Origin: an uncultured Chloroflexia bacterium
GTDB taxonomy: Bacteria; Chloroflexota; Ktedonobacteria; Ktedonobacterales; JADMIN01
Assembly: GCA_963718915.1 (NCBI GenBank)
Contig: CAVRAI010000017.1
Coordinates: forward strand, 1 to 28,394
Length of the DNA: 28,394 bases
Direction: 5' to 3'
Within the stretch, counting starts at the first letter, position 1. The number at the start of each line of letters is the position of its first letter. The notes under the pieces were generated by a model. It did not search any database, was not told the origin of the DNA, and saw only the letters and a list, made by a program, of their open reading frames with translations. The translations under genes and the position numbers were made by a program. Shown here one piece after another: positions 988 to 4,447 of the stretch.

Positions 988-1238
988 GAGGTTCAAGAAG
1001 GATAGCTGAACCTGGCGCGGAGGTTGGGGACCTCTTGATAACCTCACGAGAACCTAGCCGGTAGTTCTCATACCTTCTTCACACCTTCCCCGCACGTCTC
1101 TCGGGGTCTCGGAGAGGTTGCCTGGAGGTTGCGATAGCCTTGATCTTTACCTCATCTTCTGTCGAGGTTTCATCGAGGTTTCGGGATGTTTCTGCACTCT
1201 TTTTCGATGGTCCTATGAGGTTGCCAAGAGGTTGCCAG
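988..1238 (+). repeat. iteron-like array of GAGGTT(G/T)C repeats: three tandem 11-bp pairs plus solitary copies
   Basis: Pair 1: GAGGTTGCC 1114-1122 and GAGGTTGCG 1125-1133. Pair 2: GAGGTTTC 1164-1171 and 1175-1182. Pair 3: GAGGTTGCC 1217-1225 and 1228-1236. Solitary copies are GAGGTTCA 988-995 and GAGGTTGG 1020-1027, with an inverted AACCTC at 1040-1045. Period within pairs is exactly 11 bp, and pairs are about 50-53 bp apart. Confidence 0.65.
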
Positions 1239-1772
1239 CCACGGTGATACCAGGAATGGACCTCCAAGAACCTACCGAAACTACGCAAGAACATGCATGT
1301 ACTACGTGACACACATCACCAGAACGTAGAAGCGAGTCAGCTAGTCCTTCCCAATCTTGCTGGCTACCTCCCCTGTGTCTTGTGTACACTTTGTGTGGTT
1401 CTCGCTGCTTCGGATGTGCTTATTGACTATCTCATACTTCAACTAAACCGTGATTAGTAGCAGTTCCAAATGAGTACTTTCCGTGAGGCAGGAGACGTGG
1501 CCAGCAGCAGAAACAAGGTGATGCGTCGGCGCTCAAGTGGGAGGGTGACGTGGCGAGGTAGTCCCTACTAAAAATCGCCGAAACCCCCAACTTTGCTGTT
1601 GCTCCGATGGGACCGTGTGTCGATTGAAGGTGGGACGGCGAAAGATGCCGTAGCCGACTCCAACCCCGGTTCTTTCTGCACCACCACCCGTGCCACTTAG
1701 CCCTACACCTACACCTTCTCCCCTGCCAAGGTTGCGGTGGCCACTCATAGGAGTAGGTAGTGAATCCTGTCC

Positions 1773-2108
1773 CTAGTACCCAGGCCCAGCCACATGCTCG
1801 ACGACAAAATCTATCATCGGTTTCTTAGGCTTTCGGCTTGGGGGTGTTGCGCCCGGCTCGCGCGCCAGCACGGCATCTACCAACACTCCCAGCGTTCTCA
1901 GAGATTCTCTGGTCACCACCGCGCGGAACTGGCTGTGTCCGTACCACTCAAGCAGCTTATATGGGTCTGGTTTGGCATATGGGTTGTGGTGATCAAGATC
2001 AGGGCCGGTAATAGGTACAGGTTCTGGAGTCGTCTCTGCCCCCAGCTTCTTCCCTTTCAGGTCTTCAAGCTCAGTGTATCGTTCACGTAGTCTTCGACCC
2101 ATCTCCAC
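1773..2108 (-). CDS. hypothetical 111-aa protein; last gene of the Mrr-ParA operon and a possible ParA partner or DNA-binding adaptor
   Basis: ORF-track entry with a GTG start 2 nt after the stop of the preceding 39-aa ORF, so tight operon packing. It has a basic N-terminus (GRRLRERY) and a basic patch (PSRKPKKP). No recognisable family. Confidence 0.45.
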   Translation of the reverse strand: MEMGRRLRERYTELEDLKGKKLGAETTPEPVPITGPDLDHHNPYAKPDPYKLLEWYGHSQFRAVVTRESLRTLGVLVDAVLAREPGATPPSRKPKKPMIDFVVEHVAGPGY

Positions 2109-2110
2109 AT

Positions 2111-2230
2111 CTAATGGAAGCCATTATTTGATATTTCAATCGCTGCTGTCGATGCCGCATCTTTGTCTGTCGCATCGATGGCATGTAATAACTGCTCGTT
2201 CGCTAGCTTCTTTCGTTGAGCAAAGGTCAT
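2111..2230 (-). CDS. hypothetical 39-aa ORF (MTFAQRKKLANEQLLHAIDATDKDAASTAAIEISNNGFH)
   Basis: Hand-translated ATG (2230-2228) to TAG (2113-2111), lying between the ParA tail and the 111-aa ORF. No clear SD. It is below the ORF-track cutoff. Confidence 0.2.
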   Translation of the reverse strand: MTFAQRKKLANEQLLHAIDATDKDAASTAAIEISNNGFH

Positions 2231-2261
2231 CGGACGAGTACTGATTGGTCGTGTTGTTCAC

Positions 2262-2423
2262 CTACTTGGCATAGTTTAGTACCTCCTCGGCGAGCGCGCT
2301 GTAAGCTTTGGCTCCATTGGTTCCCGCACCAGGCTGCAACATCTCCAACTGATTGTCGATTGGGACGCGGTGTTCAAGTATTCGGCCACCATTCCGCACG
2401 ATCATCGGACTCAGGCTATTCAA
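2262..2423 (-). pseudogene. out-of-frame C-terminal segment of the ParA domain (...SLSPMIVRNGGRILEHRVPIDNQLEMLQPGAGTNGAKAYSALAEEVLNYAK)
   Basis: Hand translation of the frame shifted by one relative to 2444..3571. It gives the canonical ParA/Soj C-terminus: an (I/V)-R-N segment and a GA-x-AY-x-x-LA-x-E-(V/L)L ending. The frame stays open back across the annotated stop to the C6 run at 2469-2474. Confidence 0.6.
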
Positions 2424-2443
2424 TACAACCTCCTTTGATAGCT

Positions 2444-3571
2444 CTAGGTTATCCCAATGAGTGATAAGCCCCCCATAAAGTCCGCCTCAGTCCCCATAAG
2501 CGCACTAACCGTCCTGAGTGTCGTTAGCATATTCCTTGTACCTGCCTCAGACGACCTGCGAGGGCGCAACGGCGCAATCACGTACTCGGCGGCACACAAC
2601 CCACTGCGTGTAAAGACTGTCATAGCTGGAGGTGTGTCGATAATAATCCAATCAGGCGGCCCTCCCAAACTAGCGATCTGCCTAGTACAAATCTTATGAA
2701 CATCCTGAACGAACTGCAATTCAACATTCGGACGACCGTTGCCGCCATAGTCACGTAGCGTAAGGAATGGGTCTGCGGGGATGATGCTCAGGTGATCAGT
2801 CGCGGTTGGCGTGATCAAGTCCACGAGGTGCCGCTCACCTGCAAAGTAGTGGGTGATATTGGGAAACAGTTCACCTTCAATCGTTCGTTTCTCTACTTGA
2901 TCAGGTAGACATCGCTCAGTCAGGTTTCCTTGTCCATCGAGGTCAATGAGGAGAACTCGCTTACCATATTTCTTCGCCAATTCAACACCCAAGTAATATG
3001 CTGTCGTTGTCTTACCTACCCCGCCCTTGTTGTTAGCAATAGTGAGAATCCGTGTGTCGCCAACCCGACGCGGGCGAACACTTTCTCTCCCAGCAAAGTG
3101 CTCTGGCGAAATCGTGGCGATGGTCTCTTCATCGTCATTCCGCGAGTTCCTCACATAGTCGATGTAGCGCACAAGCTGCATTCCGTTCATCAAGTAGACG
3201 CGCCGTGCCCCAGTTTCAGCCATTTGGTGAGCGGCCTTATTGAAGTCGCTGGTTGTGATCACAAACGGTTTTGCGCCTGCCCGGTCAACGGCTGGAGCGC
3301 CTCGTACTCCTCTGATGGTTGACGTAGTTACCAATTGTTCGGGAGCATAACGTTTACACTCAATCCCAGCGACGATACGATTGCTTCCCCGCGAGCGAAC
3401 CTCCAAGTCCACTCCTCTGAGAAAGTGCAACCCAACCACCCTAGTCTGATAACCAGCCCGGCCCAATACATACGCAACGAAGCGCTCGAATTCCTTTGGG
3501 GTCAAGGCATATATCGCTTCCACTGTGGGCACTTTGAATAGCGCCGCAAATTTATCTAGTTCGGTTGGCAT
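2444..3571 (-). CDS. fusion protein: N-terminal Mrr-type restriction-endonuclease (PD-(D/E)xK) domain plus a ParA/Soj-family deviant Walker-A ATPase, C-terminally truncated by an apparent frameshift
   Basis: The N-terminal half carries FERFVAYVLGRAGY, GVDLEV, GIECKRY (D...ExK) and FVITTSDF, matching the Mrr_cat pattern. The C-terminal half carries ILTIANNKGGVGKTTT (deviant Walker A), VLLIDLDGQGNLT (A') and WIIIDTPP (Walker B). Third codon positions are more A/T-rich than in the rest of the window. Confidence 0.85.
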   Translation of the reverse strand: MPTELDKFAALFKVPTVEAIYALTPKEFERFVAYVLGRAGYQTRVVGLHFLRGVDLEVRSRGSNRIVAGIECKRYAPEQLVTTSTIRGVRGAPAVDRAGAKPFVITTSDFNKAAHQMAETGARRVYLMNGMQLVRYIDYVRNSRNDDEETIATISPEHFAGRESVRPRRVGDTRILTIANNKGGVGKTTTAYYLGVELAKKYGKRVLLIDLDGQGNLTERCLPDQVEKRTIEGELFPNITHYFAGERHLVDLITPTATDHLSIIPADPFLTLRDYGGNGRPNVELQFVQDVHKICTRQIASLGGPPDWIIIDTPPAMTVFTRSGLCAAEYVIAPLRPRRSSEAGTRNMLTTLRTVSALMGTEADFMGGLSLIGIT

Positions 3572-3680
3572 AGAGTTCGGCGTCCCTTCTAGAGATGTGC
3601 TATTCGCGACTTGTACAAAATAAATGTCAGATTGGTGTTTGCGGTTTGCCGCCCTGGCTTCCTGCTTGTAGTGCCCTTGA

Positions 3681-4205
3681 CTACTTCGGGATTCTTATTA
3701 AAGGTATTGAGTTACTGCCTTTCCATCTGTGTTGTGTCATCCCTGCGTCTGCCATATGAAACGTTCCCTTGTTGAATGATATTCTGTACCGACCAGACTC
3801 CATAGTAGTGGTTTGGGTTCCAGGTGTCAATCGGGTTAGGAGCAGGTCAATACATCCGCCGTCTTCTTTACGTGCAAAGAAGCGTTGCGTGAAAGTCGCG
3901 ATGAAGACTATTTCGATCAGCGGGCCGACGATGGCTTCGGCGGCGGCTAACGCTATTATGGGGGCATCGAGGGCCAATCCACCACCTTAGGAAGAAACAA
4001 CGTCCGTGAAACGATGTAACGCTGAATACAAATGCAGAGAGTGGCGAGTTGATAGTATCGTGGACACCTATTCCCCAAACGCCGGAGCCAAGCGCGAAAT
4101 AGGCCGCCGAAAAAATGCCGATGACGAGGATGTAGACTAAAAGACTGCGTAATGACTTGTTTCCGATTGTGAGAGGTGCTACACTAGTTGCGAGGTTATC
4201 TGCTC
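3681..4205 (-). pseudogene. remnant of a small polytopic membrane protein (possible two-TM channel-like protein) lacking a start codon and needing at least one frameshift
   Basis: ORF track 3681..3977 encodes ...LDAPIIALAAAEAIVGPLIEIVFIATFTQRFF (TM-like). Hand translation of another frame upstream (about 3985-4205) gives SLRSLLVYILVIGIFSAAYFALGSGVWGIGV...SPLSAFVFSVTSF with no ATG, GTG or TTG start. The two parts join only through a frameshift near 3975-3990. Confidence 0.3.
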
Positions 4206-4277
4206 AGTGAGGCGCTGAGTCATCAATTGATTACAGCCTCTCACCAGATGACTGCGTTAAAATGTAGACGTGTCAGC

Positions 4278-4422
4278 TTGCCTCTAGCTCAATTGGCAGA
4301 GCAGGTCTGAGCCGGAGTTCAACGCAGGCGAGAGACGATGTGGGACAGCGCGCAAGTAGCCGATGTCCCACGACTGACTCTTAATCAGCGGGTTGTCGGT
4401 TCGAGTCCGACGGGGCTCACCA
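4278..4422 (+). tRNA. tRNA-Lys(CUU)-like gene interrupted by a ~69-nt insertion (4305-4373) in the 5' strand of the anticodon stem; possibly a pseudo-tRNA
   Basis: - 5' part: TA, then D-arm GCTC-AATTGGCA-GAGC, then A-G (4285-4304).
- 3' part: CTGA, loop CTCTTAA, TCAGC, variable GGGTT, T-arm GTCGG-TTCGAGT-CCGAC, acceptor GGGGCTC, discriminator A, encoded CCA (4374-4422).
- Removing 4305-4373 gives a perfect GCTGA/TCAGC anticodon stem and U33-CUU-A37.
- The 5' acceptor strand TTGCCTC pairs at only 5 of 7 positions; positions 1-2 are unpaired. Confidence 0.5.
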
Positions 4423-4447
4423 AACACCTCAAATCGCTATAAGGTTT

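What the first reader, a model, noticed from the sequence alone, without database searches (positions are those of the whole stretch)
2444..3571. Mrr-type PD-(D/E)xK nuclease domain fused to a ParA/Soj partition ATPase
- **Seen, nuclease half:** the first ~170 aa carry the Mrr catalytic-domain pattern, and the putative catalytic residues look intact. The motifs are FERFVAYVL..GY, then GVDLEV, then GIECKRY (D...E-x-K), then FVITTSDF.
- **Seen, ATPase half:** the rest is an unambiguous deviant-Walker-A ParA with KGGVGKT, DLDGQGN and IIIDTPP.
- **Established:** ParA ATPases form ATP-dependent sandwich dimers that bind DNA non-specifically. Type Ia ParAs carry an N-terminal HTH domain.
- **Inference:** here that position is taken by a restriction-endonuclease fold. 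This suggests either an ATP- or dimerisation-gated nuclease (defence, plasmid or prophage exclusion) or a nuclease fold reused as a DNA-recognition module in a partition system.
- **Context:** the gene heads a small operon with two orphan ORFs in an A+T-richer accessory segment. I recall no characterised system with this architecture, but that is memory, not a search.
Basis: partly seen in the sequence, partly recalled or inferred. Interest (0 to 1): 0.72.

Follow-up and report, generated by a model that had tools for sequence, protein, structure and literature searches.

The report
Mrr nuclease–ParA ATPase two-gene module
The window holds a frameshifted copy of a conserved, uncharacterised two-gene module from soil Ktedonobacteria: a restriction-type nuclease fused to a ParA ATPase, followed by a dedicated small partner protein. 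It most likely acts as an ATP-switched DNA-cutting conflict or defence system carried on mobile DNA, and not as an ordinary DNA-partition system.

Summary
ORF 2444-3571(-) encodes an Mrr_cat domain (Pfam E 2.9e-16) fused to a deviant-Walker-A ParA ATPase (AAA_31 E 4.3e-31).

The ORF is cut short by a 1-base loss in a C6 run (2469-2474). The full gene is 2262-3571. The repaired 436-aa protein is 100% identical to a protein on a 99.5%-identical contig.

The "two orphan ORFs" are two halves of one conserved ~150-190-aa partner gene, also broken here.

The fusion is a family of roughly 100 clusters at 50% identity. The four homologues that carry a source organism name are Ktedonobacterales. The partner lay directly downstream in all 21 loci examined.

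Nuclease residues E29/D55/E71/K73 and the ATPase motifs are near-invariant. dN/dS is 0.07-0.26.

Three distant members carry an extra N-terminal TIR domain and have lost the Mrr catalytic residues, which looks like an effector swap. Neighbourhoods are variable. Seven of the 13 loci with informative flanks carry mobile-element genes, and several carry defence-type genes.

No ParB, no centromere repeats, and no plasmid or phage copies were found. However, 3 loci sit beside DnaA-box clusters.

Best reading (0.45): an ATP- or dimerisation-gated nuclease conflict system. Main rival (0.3): a ParB-less partition system of secondary replicons.

The parts
2262..3571 (-). Mrr_cat-ParA fusion gene. The product is 436 aa when the frame is repaired. 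In this window it is split into ORFs 2444-3571 and 2262-2423.
   Evidence: The repaired protein is 100% identical to P0001.
3164..3511 (-). Mrr_cat (PD-(D/E)xK) nuclease domain, aa 21-136.
   Evidence: Pfam PF04471, E 2.9e-16. Predicted alpha-beta-beta-beta-alpha-beta fold. Median pI 9.7.
3353..3487 (-). Span holding the putative catalytic codons: E29 (3485-3487), D55 (3407-3409), E71 (3359-3361) and K73 (3353-3355).
   Evidence: Codons verified. The residues are conserved in 94-97 of 97 full-length homologues and invariant in alignment A1.
3053..3163 (-). Acidic, lower-confidence linker between the two domains, aa 137-173.
   Evidence: pLDDT dips to 66 around aa 141-150. Median pI 4.4.
2262..3052 (-). 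ParA/Soj-type deviant-Walker-A ATPase domain, aa 174-436 of the repaired protein.
   Evidence: AAA_31 E 4.3e-31 and CbiA. Foldseek top hits are Soj and ParA (2bek, 8ray). D210, D212 and D312 are invariant.
3008..3028 (-). Deviant Walker A motif KGGVGKT, with signature lysine K182 and P-loop lysine K187.
   Evidence: Both lysines are present in 97 of 97 homologues.
2469..2474 (.). C6 homopolymer (G6 on the coding strand). One base is missing relative to the intact relative L003. This frameshift truncates the fusion ORF.
   Evidence: blastn of L003 against the window. Three-frame translation.
1773..2230 (-). Partner gene, belonging to a family of ~150-190-aa helical proteins with no known domain. 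Here it is in two pieces: 2111-2230 and 1773-2108.
   Evidence: The pieces match profile positions 12-48 and 56-168.
2118..2133 (.). Lesion in the partner gene: a 1-base deletion plus 3-4 substitutions relative to L003.
3802..3830 (-). Promoter-like site (TTGACA-17-TACTAT) about 230 nt upstream of the fusion start codon.
   Evidence: This is a consensus match only.
3870..4140 (-). Remnant of the C-terminal membrane part of a pentapeptide-repeat protein. Intact genes of this kind lie next to the module in L088 and L090.
   Evidence: tblastn and inspection. No gene is called here in L003.
4355..4423 (+). tRNA-Lys(CUU)-like 3' fragment. It lies near where GC begins to rise from about 0.53 to 0.61 (complete by about 5000), so it probably marks the end of an island.
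   Evidence: Rfam tRNA, 20.7 bits, below the gathering score of 29. ARAGORN finds nothing here. GC profile.

Best explanation
The module is a two-gene biological-conflict system, for defence or exclusion. It is carried in accessory and mobile DNA of Ktedonobacteria.

**Shown.**
- The large protein joins a catalytically competent-looking Mrr-type PD-(D/E)xK nuclease to a complete ParA-class ATPase.
- A dedicated small helical partner is always encoded immediately downstream.

**Inferred mechanism.**
- ParA ATPases form ATP-sandwich dimers through the signature lysine, often on DNA.
- Here ATP-driven dimerisation, or higher assembly, would bring two single-active-site Mrr domains together. That would license double-strand cleavage.
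- The partner would act like ParB, MinE or ParG. It would touch the ATPase and set its hydrolysis and turnover, or would couple it to a trigger. This would keep the nuclease off the cell's own DNA.
- In distant relatives the same ATPase scaffold carries a TIR domain while the Mrr site is dead. This indicates that the N-terminal position is an exchangeable effector slot, as in Avs/STAND immune NTPases.

**This window.** In this copy both genes are interrupted, so it is probably inactive. Assembly error cannot be excluded.
For: - **Domain calls and fold:**
- **Catalytic and ATPase residues:** E29, D55, E71 and K73 are conserved in 94-97 of 97 homologues. The ATPase motifs are invariant.
- **Purifying selection on all parts:** dN/dS is 0.15 for Mrr, 0.07 for ParA and 0.26 for the partner.
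- **Effector swap:** P0255, P0260 and P0283 are TIR_2 + Mrr_cat + ParA. They have lost D55 and E-x-K but keep the conserved TIR glutamate.
- **Partner linkage:** the partner family has 63 clusters among 5.8e9 proteins and no known domain. It is directly downstream in all 21 distinct loci with downstream sequence.
- **Neighbourhoods** are variable. Seven of 13 informative loci carry mobile-element genes and several carry defence-type genes:
  - Type III RM plus SocA/Panacea plus a serine recombinase in L102.
  - Phage terminase in L101.
  - Prim-Pol in L110.
  - TIR genes, integrase, large serine recombinase and transposases in L084, L086 and L088.
  - PADLOC candidate hits among neighbours.
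- **Not a canonical partition locus:** there is no ParB or RHH partner. There are no consistent centromere-like repeats. NCBIfam partition models score far below cutoff (68.9 against 180).
- **Island setting:** the module lies in a low-GC segment that ends near a tRNA fragment.
- **Dispensability:** it is disrupted here but intact in a 99.5%-identical relative. Another frameshifted copy occurs in L103.
Against: - No experiment exists, and the module matches no system-level PADLOC model.
- A ParA followed by a small downstream partner is the classic partition or positioning layout.
- DnaA-box clusters lie within 0.2-3.5 kb of the module in 3 of 21 loci.
- PMC13289182 reports parA without parB near predicted origins of Ktedonobacterial secondary replicons.
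- The TIR variants are distant (28-34% identity). The one with usable flanks lacks the partner within 411 nt downstream. Their function may therefore have diverged.
- The count of neighbour defence hits has no background control.
- The residue equivalent to Soj R189, which binds DNA, is not conserved. This rests on my own alignment from a remembered Soj sequence, so DNA binding by the ATPase half is unproven.
Confidence: 0.45

Rival explanations
1. The module is an atypical, ParB-less partition or positioning system for secondary replicons or for integrative elements of Ktedonobacteria. In this reading the ParA ATPase works on the nucleoid as usual. The small partner is the ParB/ParG-like adaptor that binds the cargo DNA and stimulates the ATPase. 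The basic Mrr domain replaces the N-terminal HTH of type Ia ParAs as a DNA-recognition, nicking or autoregulation module.
For: - The ATPase has a complete ParA motif set, including the signature lysine.
- A small partner is always directly downstream, often overlapping the fusion's stop codon.
- Its linker and C-terminal domain are basic, pI 9.3.
- Dense DnaA-box clusters lie next to the module in L086, L091 (two clusters flanking it) and L092.
- PMC13289182 reports parA near the predicted origin, with no parB and no canonical Rep, on chromid-like replicons of Ktedonobacteria.
- The family tree is star-like and highly diversified, as expected for incompatibility-driven par systems.
Against: - Strict conservation of nuclease catalytic residues is not expected for a domain that only binds DNA.
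- TIR-bearing variants are hard to reconcile with partition.
- No repeat arrays are shared by the loci.
- The three members next to DnaA boxes are not a clade.
- The other 18 loci have no DnaA boxes, and seven of the 13 with informative flanks lie in prophage-, island- or transposon-type contexts.
- No copy was found on 72,556 plasmids or 50,697 phages.
- The partner matches no ParB, RHH or HTH fold or family.
Confidence: 0.3
2. The module is an addiction (toxin-antitoxin-like) module that stabilises the mobile element carrying it. The nuclease-ATPase would be the toxin and the small partner its neutraliser. Loss of the element, or of the partner, would unleash DNA cleavage.
For: - The pair is tightly coupled, with a small second gene.
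- It sits at island edges and next to integrases, recombinases and other TA-type genes: PIN/HTH in L001, HipA-like in L002 and SocA in L102.
- In this window both genes are broken together. That is what one expects if loss of an antitoxin selects for loss of the toxin.
Against: - The gene order (large protein first, small one second) and the size of the ATPase are unusual for type II TA systems.
- Nothing shows that the partner is labile or inhibitory.
- This reading overlaps with the best explanation and cannot be separated from it by sequence alone.
Confidence: 0.12
3. The module is a DNA-processing factor for replication, recombination or repair at origins or element ends. It would be an ATP-regulated structure- or site-specific nuclease, with no role in conflict or partition.
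For: - Some members lie close to DnaA-box clusters.
- Some lie close to Prim-Pol or recombinase genes.
- PD-(D/E)xK domains also serve in repair and resolution. This point is general knowledge, supported by PMC3424549.
Against: - The genomic context is not conserved.
- The distribution is accessory and patchy, and copies are readily pseudogenised.
- TIR variants exist.
- The module is not linked to any repair operon.
Confidence: 0.08

Closest known systems
Chromosomal or type Ib ParA/Soj with a small partner (Soj-Spo0J; ParF-ParG of TP228; delta-omega of pSM19035)
   Same: - The ATPase half has the deviant Walker A with signature lysine, Walker A' and Walker B.
- Its predicted fold superposes on Soj/ParA: 2bek has TM 0.80 over the target and 27-29% identity.
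- A small protein is encoded just downstream, as in type Ib loci.
   Different: - It has a 170-aa N-terminal nuclease domain.
- The partner is all-helical and matches no ParB, HTH or RHH family.
- No centromere repeats were found.
- Scores fall below every NCBIfam partition cutoff.
Type Ia ParA (P1 ParA, F SopA, V. cholerae ParA2)
   Same: It has an N-terminal extension of 100 aa or more that contacts DNA, placed ahead of the ATPase core. Total size is similar, at about 400-440 aa.
   Different: The extension is a PD-(D/E)xK nuclease with conserved catalytic residues, not a winged HTH. Structural alignment to 3ez2 and 7npe covers only the ATPase (rmsd 15-20 A over the whole chain).
Mrr, a type IV modification-dependent restriction endonuclease
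   Same: It has the Mrr_cat catalytic domain with D...(E/Q)xK. PADLOC mREase_IV and PDC-S02 models hit the same domain.
   Different: - In Mrr the catalytic domain is C-terminal, behind a winged-helix sensor (Mrr_N).
- Here it is N-terminal, there is no Mrr_N, and it is fused to an ATPase.
- Plasmid-borne Mrr_cat relatives are ordinary unfused restriction enzymes.
Avs/STAND (NLR-like) antiviral NTPases with N-terminal Mrr-like or TIR effectors
   Same: The logic is the same: an exchangeable N-terminal effector (Mrr nuclease or TIR) sits on an NTPase whose nucleotide-dependent assembly could activate the effector by proximity. The TIR-for-Mrr swap is seen in this family.
   Different: The NTPase is a SIMIBI-class ParA, not a STAND NACHT or NB-ARC domain. 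There are no C-terminal sensor repeats, and a separate small partner is present instead. That Avs proteins carry Mrr-like effectors rests on my knowledge and on abstracts listed; I did not test it here.
MinD/ParA-like domains reported as effector domains in multicellular-prokaryote conflict systems (Kaur et al. 2020, PMC7159879)
   Same: A ParA/MinD-class domain occurs in conflict-system proteins of multicellular bacteria, including Chloroflexi.
   Different: [quoted passage not shown] Here all ATPase motifs are invariant, and the protein stands alone with its partner.

Membership tests
ParA/MinD (SIMIBI, deviant Walker A) ATPases | Deviant Walker A KGGxGK[ST] with an N-terminal signature lysine | tested here: met
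   KGGVGKT at aa 182-188. K182 and K187 are present in 97 of 97 homologues.
ParA/MinD (SIMIBI, deviant Walker A) ATPases | Walker A' (DxD) and Walker B aspartates; profile match above the curated cutoff; Soj-like fold | tested here: met
   D210, D212 and D312 are invariant. AAA_31 scores 108.7 bits against a cutoff of 27. Foldseek to 2bek and 8ray gives E about 1e-15.
ParA/MinD (SIMIBI, deviant Walker A) ATPases | ATP-dependent sandwich dimerisation and partner-stimulated hydrolysis | not testable with these tools
   This needs biochemistry or a multimer prediction.
Canonical ParABS / type I partition system | Cognate centromere-binding protein of the ParB (HTH + ParB/Srx) or ParG/omega (RHH) type | tested here: not met
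   The partner has no Pfam, PHROG, PADLOC or PDB match. It is predicted to be all-helical and has no significant fold match.
Canonical ParABS / type I partition system | Centromere-like repeat array next to the operon | tested here: not met
   No repeat family is shared by the 10 loci scanned.
Canonical ParABS / type I partition system | Location on a plasmid or prophage replicon, or next to a replication origin | tested here: inconclusive
   No copy was found on PLSDB plasmids or INPHARED phages. DnaA-box clusters lie beside 3 of 21 loci. There is a literature lead in PMC13289182.
Canonical ParABS / type I partition system | Reaches the curated equivalog score (NCBIfam ParA_partition, RepA, SopA, PrgP) | tested here: not met
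   The best score is 68.9 bits against a cutoff of 180.
Mrr-type (type IV) restriction endonuclease | Mrr_cat domain with catalytic D...(E/Q)xK at canonical fold positions | tested here: met
   PF04471 E 2.9e-16. D55 lies at strand 2 and E71-x-K73 in strand 3. The residues are conserved in 94-97 of 97 homologues.
Mrr-type (type IV) restriction endonuclease | N-terminal winged-helix DNA or modification sensor (Mrr_N), with the catalytic domain at the C-terminus | tested here: not met
   There is no Mrr_N match. The catalytic domain starts at residue 21 and is followed by the ATPase.
Mrr-type (type IV) restriction endonuclease | Modification-dependent DNA cleavage | not testable with these tools
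   This needs enzyme assays.
NTPase-coupled immune effectors (Avs/STAND-like logic) | Exchangeable N-terminal effector domains (nuclease, TIR) across one NTPase family | tested here: met
   TIR_2 + degenerate Mrr + ParA occurs in P0255, P0260 and P0283.
NTPase-coupled immune effectors (Avs/STAND-like logic) | STAND (NACHT/NB-ARC) NTPase core and C-terminal sensor repeats | tested here: not met
   The NTPase is ParA-class. The only STAND-related match is negligible (nSTAND_NTPase5, E 0.08). There are no repeats.
NTPase-coupled immune effectors (Avs/STAND-like logic) | Enrichment in defence islands; protection against phage or plasmids | tested here: inconclusive
   Several neighbours are RM, TIR, TA or PADLOC-candidate genes. 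There is no background control and no phenotype.
Any PADLOC v2 defence system | A protein-level match to a system component over most of its length | tested here: not met
   Only domain-level hits were found: PDC-S02 and mREase_IV on the Mrr domain, and PDC-M28B on 38 aa around Walker A.

The most novel reading that the evidence does not exclude
A ParA/MinD-class ATPase, the motor of DNA partition, has been recruited as the nucleotide switch of a previously undescribed two-gene immune or exclusion system. ATP-driven dimerisation on DNA would arm an exchangeable N-terminal effector, either an Mrr nuclease or a TIR domain. A dedicated ParB-like-in-role but structurally novel partner would control the cycle. 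As far as my searches show, this would be the first defence system built on a catalytically active ParA scaffold.
Probability: 0.4. Interest if true: 0.8.

Novelty: new variant of a known kind. Interest (0 to 1): 0.6.

Why it matters
- **If it is a conflict system,** it adds the ParA/MinD ATPase class to the NTPases (STAND, ABC, AAA+, SMC, OLD) known to gate immune nucleases and TIR domains. It would also offer a simple model: two genes, a dimer switch and a small regulator. This model could show how nucleotide-dependent dimerisation arms an effector.
- **If it is instead the ParB-less partition system of Ktedonobacterial secondary replicons,** it would explain how those chromid-like replicons are maintained. 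It would also show a nuclease fold replacing the HTH of type Ia ParAs.
- **Either way,** the partner is a new protein family tied exclusively to this ATPase. The family is large enough, at roughly 100 clusters at 50% identity, to support covariation and structural work.
- **For this window,** the practical message is that the copy is interrupted in both genes. It should be annotated as a probable pseudogene pair unless resequencing restores the frames.

Tried and rejected
- **Genome-collection scan.** The scan with the full-length alignment picked the generic Walker-A and DxDxQ motifs.
- **Viral contigs.** The N-domain found only 219-220-aa membrane-anchored Mrr_cat proteins. They lie next to what look by eye like tubulin/PhuZ-type genes, suggesting large phages. 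They are unrelated to the fusion. The partner alignment had no stretch conserved enough to scan with.
- **Plasmids and phages.** There is no full-length fusion for the core family, for the distant clade (P0325) or for a TIR variant (P0260). Plasmid Mrr_cat hits are ordinary unfused restriction enzymes.
- **Centromere or operator repeats.** None is shared across loci. A TATAGT-type promoter motif recurs in 5 of 10 loci, but not in the window.
- **Programmed frameshift.** I rejected this because the homologues encode the protein in one frame.
- **A DnaA-box clade.** I rejected this because the three members are scattered in the tree.
- **GC skew around the DnaA-box clusters.** It was uninformative.
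- **tRNA adjacency as a family trait.** It holds only for the window and its closest relative L001.
- **Literature.** I found no description of an Mrr_cat-ParA protein.
Full report
**1. What is in the sequence**

Pfam gives three matches:
- Mrr_cat at aa 21-136, E 2.9e-16, 60.1 bits against a gathering score of 21.
- AAA_31 at aa 174-357, E 4.3e-31.
- CbiA, E 2.4e-14.

The ORF stops early. Translating the three minus-strand frames shows that the ParA C-terminus continues in ORF 2262..2423 after a shift inside a G6 run, which is C6 at 2469-2474 on the plus strand.

A 3,373-nt contig from another data set, L003, is 99.47% identical to window 1037-4402. It has seven G at that place and an uninterrupted 436-aa gene. 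The window's repaired protein is 100% identical to that product, P0001.

The 39-aa and 111-aa ORFs downstream are not two genes. In relatives a single 149-189-aa gene lies there. The two window ORFs align to positions 12-48 and 56-168 of its profile. Relative to L003 the window has a 1-base deletion and 3-4 substitutions at about 2118-2133.

So both genes of the module are interrupted here. Twelve larger ORFs in the remaining 23 kb gave family matches that raised no sign of a frameshift: an FkbM methyltransferase, a GT4 glycosyltransferase and ten further ORFs, mostly polysaccharide-related genes. I did not test every gene for intactness. L003 also differs from the window by a 4-base indel. 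Real decay is therefore at least as likely as assembly error, but I cannot decide between them.

**2. Anatomy of the fusion protein**

AlphaFold2 with a 47-sequence alignment gives pLDDT 91.3 and pTM 0.91.

The N-terminal domain has the alpha-beta-beta-beta-alpha-beta order of PD-(D/E)xK nucleases:
- E29 lies in helix 1.
- D55 lies at the start of strand 2.
- E71-x-K73 lies in strand 3.

An acidic, less confident linker (aa 137-173) follows. Then comes a Soj-like ATPase. The best PDB matches are Soj and ParA (2bek, 8ray, 6iub), with E about 1e-15 and 27-29% identity. No solved chain covers both halves.

Among 97 full-length homologues:

| Residue(s) | Present in |
|---|---|
| E29 | 97 |
| D55 | 94 |
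| E71 | 95 |
| K73 | 94 |
| K182, K187, D210, D212, D312 | 97 each |

Comparing L003 with L001 (84% protein identity), dN/dS is 0.15 for the Mrr part, 0.07 for ParA and 0.26 for the partner. Both enzymatic halves are therefore under purifying selection with their active-site residues intact.

The Mrr domain is strongly basic, with median pI 9.7.

**3. The partner**

The downstream protein has no match in any resource I could search:
- Pfam, PHROGs or PADLOC.
- PDB sequences.
- Solved or viral predicted structures.

Its predicted structure (pLDDT 87.5) has three parts:
- An N-terminal three-helix unit.
- A basic, low-complexity linker.
- A C-terminal four-helix unit, which ends in a conserved ...HVAGPGY tail.

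Closer relatives carry a variable, Arg/Lys/Pro-rich tail ahead of a conserved (M/L)T..QRK.LAT motif.

A profile search of 5.8e9 proteins finds only 63 clusters. All are 83-210 aa long, all are unannotated, and many lie on contigs whose lengths coincide with contigs of the fusion.

The partner is directly downstream in all 10 loci fetched through the fusion protein. It is also downstream in all 11 distinct metagenome loci that have downstream sequence, including a member with only 33% N-domain identity. It is an exclusive, co-inherited partner.

**4. The family and its variants**

The word-indexed search listed 120 best hits. Most are 430-465 aa with both domains. The four hits that carry a source organism name (three here and one) are Ktedonobacterales MAGs.

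A full HMM search of 1.84e9 representatives puts roughly 100 clusters at 50% identity above the level of ordinary ParA, which is about 138 bits. Those clusters include:
- **A distant clade** at 23-27% identity, with the classical Mrr D...(Q)xK motif.
- **Three proteins of 585-598 aa** (P0255, P0260, P0283) with the architecture TIR_2 + Mrr_cat + ParA.

In those three proteins D55 and the E-x-K motif are lost, while the conserved TIR glutamate is kept. One of them (P0255) also lacks the P-loop lysine. The one TIR variant with usable flanks has no partner within 411 nt downstream or 226 nt upstream.

I read this as an effector swap at the N-terminal position. The swap concerns distant relatives, and its transfer to the window's clade is an inference.

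**5. Surroundings**

In the window the module lies in a segment with GC 0.527, against 0.608 for the rest. Three features lie upstream of it:
- A promoter-like site.
- A remnant of a pentapeptide-repeat membrane protein.
- A tRNA-Lys-like 3' fragment at 4355-4423, which neither ARAGORN nor Rfam accepts as a gene.

Beyond that fragment the polysaccharide genes begin. This looks like the decayed end of an island that runs off the left edge of the window.

Only the two genes are shared with relatives. L001 aligns to window 1773-3593 and nowhere else.

Neighbourhoods of the 13 loci with informative flanks:

| Locus | Neighbours |
|---|---|
| L001 | tRNA-Lys |
| L002 | HipA-like/DUF3037 |
| L084 | large serine recombinase, TIR gene, prohead protease |
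| L086 | transposases |
| L088 | tyrosine integrase, HTH_17, TIR gene, pentapeptide protein |
| L089 | HNH, pentapeptide protein |
| L090 | NB-ARC/TPR protein, pentapeptide protein |
| L091 | HTH-Peptidase_M78 regulator |
| L092 | metabolic and resistance genes |
| L102 | Type III RM pair, SocA/Panacea, serine recombinase |
| L101 (and its near-identical shorter copy L100) | phage terminase |
| L110 | Prim-Pol, helicase-REase |

PADLOC models hit several of 87 neighbour proteins: PDC-S35, a SAVED-TIR-like TIR, PDC-M66A, RmrA, mad1-3 and PDC-S45. I have no background rate for comparison.

No copy exists on PLSDB plasmids or INPHARED phages.

**6. Evidence that points the other way**

DnaA-box clusters (TTATCCACA with at most one mismatch; chance expectation about 0.2 per kb) lie close to the module in three loci:
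- **L091:** seven boxes and an AT-rich stretch directly upstream, plus a second cluster of eight boxes 2.3 kb downstream of the partner.
- **L092:** four boxes 220-300 nt upstream.
- **L086:** five boxes 3.3 kb upstream, beyond an insertion sequence.

The three proteins are scattered in the family tree. No dnaA gene lies within 8 kb.

A 2026 paper on Ktedonobacteria (PMC13289182) reports that chromid-like secondary replicons carry a parA near the predicted origin. It found no parB and no canonical Rep on them. It gives no domain detail. The fusion could be that parA.

**7. Weighing**

For a conflict role:
- The nuclease site is conserved.
- The TIR/dead-Mrr variants exist.
- The contexts are variable, and mobile-element and defence genes recur in them.
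- There is no ParB-type protein and no centromere repeats.
- Copies are easily lost.

For a partition role:
- The ParA-plus-small-partner layout is the classic one.
- DnaA-box clusters lie beside some loci.
- The literature offers the lead described above.

I put 0.45 on an ATP- or dimerisation-gated nuclease conflict system. I put 0.30 on a ParB-less partition system, 0.12 on an addiction-type module (which overlaps the first) and 0.08 on other DNA processing.

The mechanistic steps are inferred from what is established for ParA ATPases and for proximity-activated Mrr and TIR effectors. These steps are dimerisation bringing two Mrr sites together and the partner tuning ATP turnover. None of them is shown here.

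**8. Comparison with what is known, and novelty**

The protein is a member of the ParA/MinD ATPase class, and its N-domain is a member of Mrr_cat. Both were tested and met.

It is not a member of three other groups:
- Canonical ParABS, because the partner, the centromere and the curated scores were all not met.
- Mrr-type type IV enzymes, because it has no Mrr_N and the domain order is inverted.
- STAND immune NTPases, because the NTPase class is wrong and there are no sensor repeats.

It works most like the last group in logic.

Eight full-text searches that returned results and four papers gave no description of this architecture. Databases label it "AAA family ATPase" or "chromosome partitioning protein".

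I rate it a new variant of a known kind. Interest is 0.6. It is lowered by the broken state of this copy and by the unresolved function. It is raised by the size and coherence of the family, the orphan partner and the TIR swap.

Noticed in passing
L091 7355-7790 and 12060-12370; L092 7697-7781; L086 3512-3753: Dense DnaA-box clusters (TTATCCACA with at most one mismatch; up to 8 per 300 nt, with an AT-rich stretch in L091) lie beside the module in three related loci. In L091 they flank it on both sides. They may mark replication origins of chromosomes or secondary replicons. There is no dnaA gene within 8 kb, and the three proteins are not a clade.
   Followed up: partly
window 4284-4423: tRNA debris lies at the GC boundary. 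A 5' tRNA-like piece (GCCTCTAGCTCAATTGGCAGAGC...) at about 4284-4312 is followed by a tRNA-Lys(CUU)-like 3' part at 4355-4423 that ends in CCA. ARAGORN and the Rfam gathering threshold both reject it (20.7 bits against 29). It is probably an attachment-site remnant of an island that extends past the window's left end.
   Followed up: partly
window 3870-4140 (-); L088 5386-6900; L090 9960-11000; L089 6081-7115: Pentapeptide-repeat genes lie next to the module in 3 of 10 related loci. Those of L088 and L090 share a C-terminal membrane segment (...FHGR.FF...IE.VF.A....RF), and a decayed remnant of that segment lies just upstream of the fusion gene in the window. This may be a loose association or merely an abundant gene family in these genomes.
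   Followed up: partly
L092 7512-7640: A perfect tandem array of about 13 copies of the 10-nt unit AGCGGGGTCG lies between a response-regulator gene and the DnaA boxes, upstream of the module.
   Followed up: no
window 4616-28394: The rest of the window is a polysaccharide or cell-envelope gene cluster. It includes an FkbM methyltransferase, several GT4 and GT2 glycosyltransferases, two polysaccharide deacetylases, GH16 with a CBM, an ATP-grasp protein and a 630-aa multi-pass membrane protein with no family match. It is unrelated to the module.
   Followed up: partly
L103 502-1806; proteins P0191, P0194, P0118, P0085, P0006: Further truncated or frameshifted copies of the fusion occur on other contigs, some of them long (up to 1.6 Mb). 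This points either to frequent pseudogenisation of the family or to homopolymer errors in long-read metagenome assemblies.
   Followed up: no
L086, L088, L089, L091, L092: about 60-90 nt upstream of the fusion start codon: A shared promoter-like motif, (C/T)ATGCTATA(G/C)T, followed by a partly conserved leader, occurs in five loci. It is absent from the window and from L001.
   Followed up: no
L093 7809-8471 and L096 5413-6072 (IMG/VR contigs of 24-200 kb): Membrane-anchored 219-220-aa Mrr_cat proteins are encoded next to genes that look by eye like tubulin/PhuZ-type genes, on large viral contigs. They are unrelated to the fusion but form a conserved phage gene pair.
   Followed up: no
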